Assembly (NCBI RefSeq): GCF_002571385.2
Contig: NW_019217914.1
Span: 256,552-320,551, forward strand
Length of the DNA stretch: 64,000 nucleotides
From: Stylophora pistillata
Taxonomy: Eukaryota
Reading direction: 5' to 3'
The position numbers were made by a program, and so were the translations under genes. This document shows, one piece after another, positions 29,578 through 31,161 of this stretch (the first letter of the stretch is position 1; every line of letters starts with the position of its first letter). Below the pieces are notes generated by a model. The model was given only the letters and a program-made list of their open reading frames with translations. It was not told the origin of the DNA and did no database searches.

Positions 29578-31161
29578 TCAGCCCACTTCTACCACTTCCT
29601 CAAACTCTTCCTTTGGGATACTCATTTCCCTGCTGCACACACTCTCAATTCGACTGAGATATTCTGGAAATTTAGGTAGAACCAATTCCCACACTTTTTC
29701 TGAAGGACATCTGCTAATGAAACTAAATGTCTGAGTATCTTTTGCATCTTTAGAATACTTAGTTGTAATGACAAATGCATCCTCCCTTAAAACTTCAAAC
29801 TCAGCTAGAAATGAATCATACCTATTTGGAACATACTCCACTAAATCACGTGTCTGGGACATGCTGTTTAGTGAAGTCAGTGAAGCATCATTCAATAAAG
29901 TGCTGCTATCACTGGTTTCTGGTTCTTCTGTTTGCAATTTCAGTTTTATTTTTTGAAATATTGTCAGTGCCTTGCCAAGAAATTGCCTCCAAAGCTGAAA
30001 CCACAAAACAAAACACCAGTCAAATGAACAGATTTCTCTGTCTAGACCTGATGGCCTCCACGCATCTGATACAGGAATTTTATAACACTGCCCCCAAACA
30101 TTTGTTGTTCTCATCAGGAATGGTGGAAACACACCCTCCCTTAATTTAACCCTGACATACCGTATAATTTCAATGCAGCAGGTTACAATATCTGGAGTTC
30201 CTGAGCACAGCTTCTCGTATTCATGAAAAAGGACAGCAGTTTTAAAAACATAAGAAGACAGGCTGATGTCTTTTATTGGCCTGTTAAAATATGTGTTGTG
30301 AGTTAGAAGATACTTCAGTACCCTGTAGCATTTTTTATGGATTGGATGTAGATGGCGCACCAGAAAAACCTCAGTGGTAGCGTGGGAAATGTGGAGATAA
30401 GGTGCATGAGGGGACTGCCCTGACACTTTGCACACAAGATGAAACTTTACATTTCCTGTCATTCCAAATACATGACTGGGAAAACCATGGATATCACTTA
30501 GGGGAGTTAAGTCCTCAACTGACACTGCTGGCATAATATCAACACCAATATCTAGTGAGTAGGAAGTTGCTAATATCAAGTCTCTATCACAAAGTCCATT
30601 ATATATTTCAGGACCTTCATAGTTCTCCTTAAACTTGTGCCACTCTAATTTCAAAGCTAAATAGTCTGAACCTTTAATGACCATGATACCATGTGGAGTC
30701 ACAACCTTCTTCATTAACATGGCTTTCACAACCTCTTTCAGGGTCTCCACAAACTCTGCACGCAATCCTTCGTGGTGTATGCAGCAAATATCCTTATACA
30801 GTAGCCTAGTTATGTTCGCCATGGCCTTATCAAAGCCAGAGTTGAGAAAAGCCACCATGTAACCTGGTTGGCAACCTTCAGTGCCCTCAATTCGCACATT
30901 TTCATTCCTGGAGAGGAAATCAAAACACGCCATGAAGTCAAACTCGTTTGGAGAACAAATCTTAGTTCCCTCTGCAAAACTCCCCATACTTATTACTTCC
31001 TTAACATCCAGGTGAGGTTTTATTCTCCCTATGTTATCTACGACCTGTTTAACAATCTGCTGTGCTGCTCTGTGCATGTGATCCATGGTTTCAGCGCTAA
31101 AATGAAAGGAAAGGTCACACAAATTGCGTTCAACATGTTCTAGGAACATACTGAGTGCCAT
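29578..31161 (-). CDS. Mab-21 family nucleotidyltransferase, cGAS-like receptor (cGLR), intronless, 527 aa
   Basis: Uninterrupted ATG-to-TGA ORF. NTase signature hGS...EhDh (MGSFAEGTKICSPNEFDF), third acidic residue in VDIMPAV, Mab-21 C-lobe motifs KKCYRVLKYL and LSSYVFKTAVLF. Confidence 0.9.
   Translation of the reverse strand: MALSMFLEHVERNLCDLSFHFSAETMDHMHRAAQQIVKQVVDNIGRIKPHLDVKEVISMGSFAEGTKICSPNEFDFMACFDFLSRNENVRIEGTEGCQPGYMVAFLNSGFDKAMANITRLLYKDICCIHHEGLRAEFVETLKEVVKAMLMKKVVTPHGIMVIKGSDYLALKLEWHKFKENYEGPEIYNGLCDRDLILATSYSLDIGVDIMPAVSVEDLTPLSDIHGFPSHVFGMTGNVKFHLVCKVSGQSPHAPYLHISHATTEVFLVRHLHPIHKKCYRVLKYLLTHNTYFNRPIKDISLSSYVFKTAVLFHEYEKLCSGTPDIVTCCIEIIRYVRVKLREGVFPPFLMRTTNVWGQCYKIPVSDAWRPSGLDREICSFDWCFVLWFQLWRQFLGKALTIFQKIKLKLQTEEPETSDSSTLLNDASLTSLNSMSQTRDLVEYVPNRYDSFLAEFEVLREDAFVITTKYSKDAKDTQTFSFISRCPSEKVWELVLPKFPEYLSRIESVCSREMSIPKEEFEEVVEVG

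What the first reader, a model, noticed from the sequence alone, without database searches (positions are those of the whole stretch)
29578..31161. Intact intronless cGAS-like receptor with an unusual C-terminal extension, wedged between two fatty-acid transporter paralogues
Seen: a complete 527 aa ORF with all NTase catalytic elements (GS, E-x-D, third D) and the Mab-21 C-lobe. It has no vertebrate Zn-thumb. After the Mab-21 region come a Trp/Phe-rich helix (FDWCFVLWFQLWRQFLGKALTIF), a Ser/Thr linker and a further predicted helical segment, about 150 aa in all that I cannot assign. Known: cGLRs are expanded nucleic-acid sensors that make cyclic dinucleotides for STING in invertebrates, including stony corals. 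Inference: this is an active, lineage-specific innate immune receptor with an extra regulatory or membrane-binding module, inserted into or retained within the FATP duplication interval.
Basis: partly seen in the sequence, partly recalled or inferred. Interest (0 to 1): 0.7.

Follow-up and report, generated by a model that had tools for sequence, protein, structure and literature searches.

The report
Wandering coral cGAS-like immune enzyme
This stony coral carries a single-exon, apparently transcribed gene for a cGAS-like enzyme that is predicted to make immune signalling nucleotides; its odd tail is an old feature shared with clam and scallop relatives, and the surprise is that the gene sits at a different place in each coral examined and has likely jumped between reef animals, including into a feather star.

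Summary
The ORF is real (31161->29578, 527 aa), single-copy, colinear with polyA-RNA contigs, and has a cGAS fold with G60-S61, E73/D75 and D208 invariant in 29 of 29 aligned sequences. The 'unusual extension' shrinks: the Trp/Phe helix (379-411) is the ordinary last C-lobe helix and is not transmembrane. The true addition (412-527) is a variable linker plus two helices and a strand, shared by coral, crinoid, scallop and pearl-oyster copies, so it is not lineage-specific. The protein is acidic (pI 6.1), so dsRNA/dsDNA sensing is doubtful; activity is untested. The unexpected part is its history. Three coral loci have three different neighbourhoods, and the two foreign sites are empty in this genome. 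One foreign copy differs at 17% of synonymous sites while its flanking exons differ at 66%. A crinoid copy is 71-73% identical to some coral copies and nests among them (AU p=0.018). Best reading: a variant cGLR subfamily that relocates and likely moves between reef animals. Contamination, a chimeric contig or paralogous flanks are not excluded.

The parts
29578..31161 (-). Single-exon ORF, 527 aa, cGAS-like (Mab-21-fold) nucleotidyltransferase; single copy in G000
   Evidence: AF2 pLDDT 83.4, pTM 0.85; cGAS Z 24.6, rmsd 3.3, 313 aligned
30937..30984 (-). Activation-loop G60-S61 and metal-binding E73-F74-D75
   Evidence: invariant in 29 of 29 rows of A1; aligns to the cGAS GS...EFD motif
30538..30540 (-). 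Third catalytic acid D208, 132 residues after D75 (longer than the published 50-90)
   Evidence: invariant in 29 of 29; aligns to cGAS VDI; published motif
30097..30336 (-). Mab-21_C helical lobe (276-355) with invariant K283, S303, Y304, K307; no Zn-thumb before it
30028..30087 (-). About 20-residue insert (359-378) with a predicted strand at 359-365
   Evidence: shared with distant bivalve relatives
29929..30027 (-). Trp/Phe-rich helix 379-411: the ordinary last C-lobe helix, lengthened; amphipathic, not transmembrane
29836..29928 (-). Ser/Thr linker 412-442, disordered, variable in length and sequence
   Evidence: pLDDT under 50; no invariant column; dN/dS 0.55-1.24 on few sites
29599..29835 (-). 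True ordered extension 443-521: helix 449-472, strand 476-482, helix 488-509; subfamily-wide, no independent fold match
   Evidence: dN/dS 0.20-0.35; 9 of 9 hits of the last 85 aa are this subfamily
31162..31310 (-). Likely unspliced 5' UTR; RNA contigs of 4 runs stop at 31299-31310, at a YY1-like motif (motif recalled)
   Evidence: weak hint only, contigs cannot fix a start
28848..29577 (-). 3' non-coding flank shared with the copy in L035 (91% over 396 nt), interrupted here by a MITE-like insert at 29249-29514 with 17-nt inverted ends
32614..40141 (-). Upstream FATP-like (AMP-binding) paralogue; neighbour, not part of the moving unit
14251..19850 (-). Downstream FATP-like paralogue (60-68% identical exons), beyond a 21-N scaffold gap

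Best explanation
The gene encodes a predicted cGAS-fold enzyme with intact catalytic residues that likely makes a cyclic dinucleotide for coral STING when triggered by a ligand that is probably not long dsRNA or dsDNA, and the gene itself relocates and has likely been passed between reef animals. Shown: ORF, RNA contigs, invariant catalytic residues, purifying selection, a conserved tail, different neighbourhoods in three coral loci, a crinoid copy inside the coral clade. Predicted: the tail folds back as a helical hairpin on the last C-lobe helix and clamps the lobe; it is part of the core, not a separate or membrane module. Inferred: metal-dependent NTP cyclisation, STING as receptor, a non-nucleic-acid cue, and movement of a compact unit (start codon to about 700 nt past the stop) into new sites, here the FATP interval, where it picked up a local promoter. 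The vehicle is unknown.
For: Fold and residues. RNA: 4 of 4 laid runs, 4 studies. dN/dS 0.21-0.25 overall, 0.20-0.35 in 443-521. STING_LBD: 10 matches in G000. Acidic pI 5.8-6.2 in 11 of 11 members computed; spine helix roughly neutral in 29 rows. Relocation: L035 shares DNA with the window only from the ATG to 28848; L036/L037 only over the ORF. Their flanking exons map to G000 C19 and C4, where no remnant is found by tblastn at E<=1 and the intervals hold no N. Young copy in old surroundings: L035 cGLR pS 0.17 (0.13-0.22) against 0.66 (0.56-0.75) for four flanking exons; the one single-copy exon alone gives 15 of 32 sites against 57 of 336, p=2e-4. Its 3' non-coding DNA aligns at 91% over 396 nt, while 0 of 6 other non-coding comparisons align over more than 43 nt. 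Crinoid copy: 71-73% identical to Oculina and two metagenome copies, against 63% for Pocillopora-Acropora; coral monophyly without it rejected, p=0.0175; grouping with scallops rejected, p=1.7e-10.
Against: No activity data. A distant oyster relative (XP_022289212, related by shared motifs seen by eye) was screened in PMC9980059 and carries no active-enzyme label (the TLC figure was not readable). The literal published motif is not met (M/I/V before GS; spacing 132). MiD51, a non-catalytic member (recalled), ties with cGAS at Z 24.3. The crinoid evidence is one record from one assembly whose DNA I could not see, with no second cluster member. L035 is one metagenome contig; its repeats match G000 at 85-93% against 71-87% for L036, which suggests a nearer host, and three of its four flanking exons belong to multi-copy genes. 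For L036, cGLR and flank divergence agree (0.53 vs 0.61, p=0.15), as vertical descent predicts. No terminal repeats or target duplication found by the repeat finder, no poly(A) tract seen at the shared 3' edge, and no viral or prokaryotic copy found.
Confidence: 0.5

Rival explanations
1. Ordinary vertical history. An old cGLR subfamily was kept in corals and bivalves, lost elsewhere, and moved only within genomes (dispersed duplication). The crinoid record is coral contamination and L035 is chimeric or flanked by paralogues.
For: Single crinoid record. L036 divergence fits vertical descent. Montipora has two copies on contigs of different size and one contig holds two copies. A similarly patchy immune family, mytilectins, was read as ancient origin plus losses (PMC10744619, passages). 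Named congeners group together in the trees.
Against: The crinoid gene lies on a 1.62-Mb contig. The single-copy flank exon of L035 is also far more diverged than the cGLR, and adjacent introns do not align. Scallop copies group with corals rather than with the pearl-oyster copy (p=7.6e-4), which needs hidden paralogy.
Confidence: 0.35
2. One reading: a dsRNA/dsDNA-sensing, lineage-specific cGLR with an added regulatory or membrane-binding module.
For: Catalytic residues intact; most characterised cGLRs sense nucleic acid; residues 1-411 alone have pI 7.9; an acidic tail could be regulatory.
Against: Whole-protein pI 6.07 and neutral spine helix; the W/F helix is the normal C-lobe helix and not hydrophobic enough; the tail is shared across phyla.
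Confidence: 0.1
3. A nucleotide-binding scaffold or non-immune NTase (MiD51- or MAB21L-like) that makes no STING ligand.
For: MiD51 ties with cGAS in the structure ranking; low copy number and 62-70% identity among corals are conservative for an immune gene.
Against: All three acids and the GS loop are invariant from corals to Pinctada; profile hits are cGAS and cGLRs; the scallop orthologue is in the curated cGLR table.
Confidence: 0.15

Closest known systems
Animal cGAS-like receptors (cGLRs), Li et al., PMC9980059; scallop XP_021371335 in their Table S1
   Same: Two-lobe fold, GS loop, three acids, no Zn-thumb; the scallop orthologue (41% identical over 98% of the query) is curated as a cGLR.
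   Different: Longer D-to-D spacing, hydrophobic residue before GS, 20-aa insert and 115-aa tail. Five coral or crinoid accessions (plus one locus tag) and two coral-copy motifs were not found in the six supplements; the scallop orthologue has no entry in the screening table. No transfer between animals is discussed in the sections read.
Acidic cGLRs (Pd-cGLR, Sp-cGLR2 in PMC9980059)
   Same: Low pI, proposed non-nucleic-acid ligand.
   Different: No relationship beyond the fold was tested; those enzymes were auto-active in vitro, this one is untested.
Vertebrate cGAS (6CT9) and oyster Cv-cGLR1 (8GJW)
   Same: Z 24.6/rmsd 3.3/313 aligned and Z 23.9/rmsd 3.6/320 aligned.
   Different: 17% identity; no thumb; the Arg of cGAS 'WRLSFS' aligns to His/Gln/Asn in 28 of 29 rows, so base choice may differ (role of that Arg recalled).
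Bivalve relatives in Mytilus, Saccostrea, Pinctada (P0133, P0134, P0275) and unnamed P0129, P0168, P0208
   Same: Profile match over 1-400 (E 1.5e-54), same W helix; their short tails weakly match 443-521 (score 21.3, E 0.002; 0 of 50 column shuffles reach it).
   Different: No Ser/Thr linker; 26% profile identity.

Membership tests
cGLR (Li et al. criteria) | GS activation loop, [DE]h[DE] and third acid conserved | tested here: met
   G60, S61, E73, D75, D208 invariant in 29 of 29
cGLR (Li et al. criteria) | Literal motif: Q/T before GS and 50-90 residues to the third acid | tested here: not met
   M/I/V before GS in 29 of 29; 132 residues. The curated scallop orthologue departs the same way. 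Filed as a cGLR-like variant, not a strict member.
cGLR (Li et al. criteria) | Homology over both NTase core and helical lobe | tested here: met
   (Pfam scores 20 and 16.1 bits are under the 24.1 cut-off; Pinctada copy passes both)
cGLR (Li et al. criteria) | Predicted structural homology to cGAS/cGLR | tested here: met
cGLR (Li et al. criteria) | [quoted passage not shown] | not testable with these tools
   needs biochemistry
Nucleic-acid-sensing cGLRs | pI above 8.5 | tested here: not met
   pI 6.07; 5.8-6.2 in 11 of 11 members
Nucleic-acid-sensing cGLRs | Long basic groove on the back face | tested here: inconclusive
Vertebrate cGAS | Zn-thumb insertion | tested here: not met
   gap in the alignment
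Membrane-anchored protein | Transmembrane helix in the tail | tested here: not met
   best 19-residue hydropathy 0.98 around the helix, with a high hydrophobic moment
Transposon cargo or retrocopy | Terminal repeats, target duplication or poly(A) at the edges of the moved unit | tested here: inconclusive
   none seen in the window or L035; edges are old enough to have decayed
Horizontally transferred gene | Gene tree conflicts with species tree | tested here: met
   AU p=0.0175 and 1.7e-10 on 16 rows, LG+G4; tests were run after a first tree was seen
Horizontally transferred gene | Physical linkage to recipient host genes, confirmed independently | not testable with these tools

The most novel reading that the evidence does not exclude
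An innate-immune signalling enzyme that spreads horizontally among marine animals: derived from bivalve cGLR diversity, established in stony corals, inserted at unrelated sites in different coral lineages, passed between distant corals recently and into a crinoid, and kept intact under purifying selection each time.
Probability: 0.35. Interest if true: 0.85.

Novelty: new variant of a known kind. Interest (0 to 1): 0.6.

Why it matters
Transfer of a working host gene between animal phyla is rarely documented (own knowledge), and my searches of the held library found no such report for cGLRs. A compact one-exon enzyme that plugs into STING, which all these hosts have, is a plausible candidate for such travel, and the claim can be tested with existing genomes. 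Even without transfer, this is an untested, acidic, low-copy cGLR subfamily conserved from corals to scallops, a clean target for the open question of which non-nucleic-acid signals cGLRs detect.

Tried and rejected
Tail as a known domain: fold of 355-527 (pLDDT 77.8) gave no Foldseek match at E<=0.001 and best Z 4.9 among 48,161 chains, generic helical hairpins only; this does not show a new fold. ESM Atlas on the tail gave only sub-0.9 Mab-21_C leads. BST-2 hits at E 0.3-0.9 are coiled-coil noise. Tail shared with other long-tailed cGLRs of this genome: 0 of 10 tails match, best E 0.22. Homodimer prediction (residues 20-517 x2): no verdict. Viral or prokaryotic source: no relative in viral contigs or genome contigs; BFVD best E 5e-4 at 11% identity. 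Wider profile search returned the same 32 proteins. Bacterial promoter scan was irrelevant. No calibration of host divergence in PMC10236652 passages. Earlier-findings look-ups returned nothing. The FATP locus of other corals and the spliced structure of the FATP genes in RNA were not examined, so which site is ancestral remains open.

Full report
Observation. The ORF runs 31161->29578 on the minus strand and gives 527 aa. Pfam finds Mab-21 at 63-220 and Mab-21_C at 276-355, both under the curated cut-off. A profile of the family hits mouse cGAS at E 1.5e-11, shows no Zn-thumb, and places D208 on the cGAS third acid. AlphaFold2 on 29 sequences gives pLDDT 83.4 and pTM 0.85; the model matches human cGAS at Z 24.6, rmsd 3.3, 313 aligned, with MiD51 and Cv-cGLR1 tied. 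The gene is single-copy in G000 by protein (next hit 28% identity) and by DNA (1 of 1 candidate). The genome holds at least 72 other Mab-21_C matches and 10 STING matches. The nearest named protein is from Pocillopora verrucosa at 91%, so the host is a stony coral.

Expression. 20 of 24 listed runs hold the stretch, 6 on record as RNA. In 4 of 4 laid runs (three polyA libraries, one guessed RNA; four studies) one gap-free contig covers 29484 to 31299-31310, with no joints and no cover at 31343-31400. This fits a single-exon transcript; contigs cannot fix a start or level, and no separate silent stretch was laid.

The extension. That helix (379-411) superposes on the last helix of the C-lobe: Cv-cGLR1 288-633 aligns to model 1-405. 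It is amphipathic, with best 19-residue hydropathy 0.98. What is added is 412-527: a disordered linker (413-442), helix 449-472, strand 476-482 and helix 488-509, plus an insert at 359-378. Folded alone, 355-527 gives only helical-hairpin matches over the two long helices, best Z 4.9; I infer that the tail packs on the lobe and is not a free domain. I could not inspect coordinates. The tail is present in all 28 relatives aligned (28 of 32 hits; two fragments and two distant proteins left out). It is under purifying selection (dN/dS 0.20-0.35 in three comparisons), the linker is not. More distant bivalve proteins have the same W helix and a shorter tail that matches weakly (E 0.002, above 50 of 50 shuffles, which lose helical periodicity). 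Long tails as such are common here: 9 of 29 loci, though 0 of 10 tested resemble this one.

Likely working. G60, S61, E73, D75, D208, K283, S303, Y304 and K307 are invariant in 29 of 29 rows, so metal-dependent NTP joining as in cGAS is likely (established knowledge of the family; not shown here). PMC9980059 (abstract, sections 5, 6, 7, 10, 19 read) reports pI above 8.5 for nucleic-acid-sensing cGLRs and proposes other ligands for acidic ones. This protein has pI 6.07, its relatives 5.8-6.2, and a neutral spine helix, so a non-nucleic-acid cue is the better guess. Against: the core alone (1-411) has pI 7.9. The literal motif of that paper is not met, but the scallop orthologue with the same departures is in its curated table. 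In the six readable supplements (cells cut at 400 characters; file 3 part 1 of 8 and file 1 parts 304-305 of 322 read, the rest searched) five coral or crinoid accessions and two coral-copy motifs gave no hit, and the scallop orthologue is absent from the screening table. A distant oyster relative was screened and bears no active label. The supplementary figure PDF was too large to read and may bear on this.

Neighbourhood. In the window the gene lies between two FATP-like paralogues, with a 21-N gap on the lower side. A metagenome scan gave 5 loci from 258 pattern matches. None shares an FATP flank. L035 (89% aa) shares DNA only from the ATG to window 28848; L036 and L037 (65-67%) only over the ORF. 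L035's copy sits between two exons that are 4 kb apart on G000 C19; L036's sits head-to-head with a thioredoxin-domain gene whose orthologue is on G000 C4. Neither G000 site holds a remnant or an N in the interval examined. L038 and L039 are too short to place. So the gene relocates. Which site is ancestral is unknown.

Age conflict. L035's cGLR differs from the window's at 17% of synonymous sites (95% 13-22), its four flanking exons at 66% (56-75). Three of these exons belong to multi-copy genes, but the single-copy one alone differs significantly (p=2e-4). The cGLR's 3' non-coding DNA aligns at 91% over 396 nt, while 0 of 6 other non-coding comparisons align beyond 43 nt. L036 shows no such conflict (0.53 vs 0.61; p=0.15). 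L035's repeats are closer to G000's than L036's are, which counts against a very distant host. A chimeric contig is not excluded.

Tree. Named full-length members are four coral genera, the crinoid Anneissia japonica, three scallops and Pinctada (10 of 24 clusters looked up carry an organism name; 8 of 32 hits not looked up). No anemone, octocoral or other echinoderm name appeared, in a word-seeded search with most rows unnamed. The crinoid copy is 71-73% identical to Oculina and two metagenome copies and groups with the latter (94/91 in 39 rows; 95/95 in 16 rows). Forcing it outside the corals is rejected at p=0.0175, joining it to scallops at p=1.7e-10. That the two metagenome copies are coral is inferred from L036's flanks. 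The coral clade nests within bivalve sequences on a midpoint root, with long branches flagged by the tool, so a bivalve origin is only a lead. The crinoid record is a single sequence on a 1.62-Mb contig whose DNA I could not see.

Literature. Ten searches of the held library (listings and abstract starts only, except the three papers named) showed no description of this subfamily or of cGLR transfer between animals. PMC10744619 (passages) reads a similar patchy pattern as ancient origin plus loss. PMC10236652 (passages) stresses tandem duplication in corals and gave no calibration.

Verdict. The gene is real and the enzyme likely functional, but the tail is an inherited subfamily feature and not a membrane module. 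Interest rests on mobility: relocation between coral lineages is shown for three loci; transfer between species is likely but hangs on one crinoid record and one metagenome contig. New variant of a known kind; interest 0.6.

Noticed in passing
window 21719-24708: 21-N scaffold gap followed at once by a perfect 1481-nt inverted repeat (arms 21740-23220 and 23228-24708); probably an assembly artefact.
   Followed up: partly
window 24927-26218: LINE-type reverse-transcriptase fragment (RVT_1, E 7e-26), in two frames, between the gene and the lower FATP paralogue.
   Followed up: no
window 29249-29514: MITE-like insert with 17-nt inverted ends in the 3' flank, absent from L035, very abundant in RNA contigs.
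   Followed up: partly
window 8290-11406 (-) and 4766-6781 (-): DAXX encoded in one 1038-aa open frame with internal Ser/Thr repeats; a WDR47-like long exon next to it.
   Followed up: no
G000:C69:317152-354089: 8 of 10 STING ligand-binding-domain matches of the genome form one tandem array; one holds two stops.
   Followed up: no
L011, L015, L018, L019, L024, L027, L029, L031, L033: Nine other cGLR-like frames in G000 carry 168-331 residues after Mab-21_C; eight are acidic (pI 4.95-5.9), while most short-tailed ones are basic.
   Followed up: partly
L036:9960-10003 and L037:520-566: A pyrimidine tract and AG just before the start suggest a 5' UTR intron in that lineage, whereas the window's transcript is unspliced there.
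   Followed up: no
P0014/P0022 and P0020/P0024 clusters: Montipora has two copies on contigs of different length (73 and 53 Mb); two unnamed copies share one contig length (419,781), suggesting both dispersed and local duplicates.
   Followed up: no
L035:10699-11710: SBP56 exons lie on the opposite strand just beyond the flanking exon; their G000 counterparts are on C287 and C963, not C19, so this neighbourhood is itself rearranged.
   Followed up: partly
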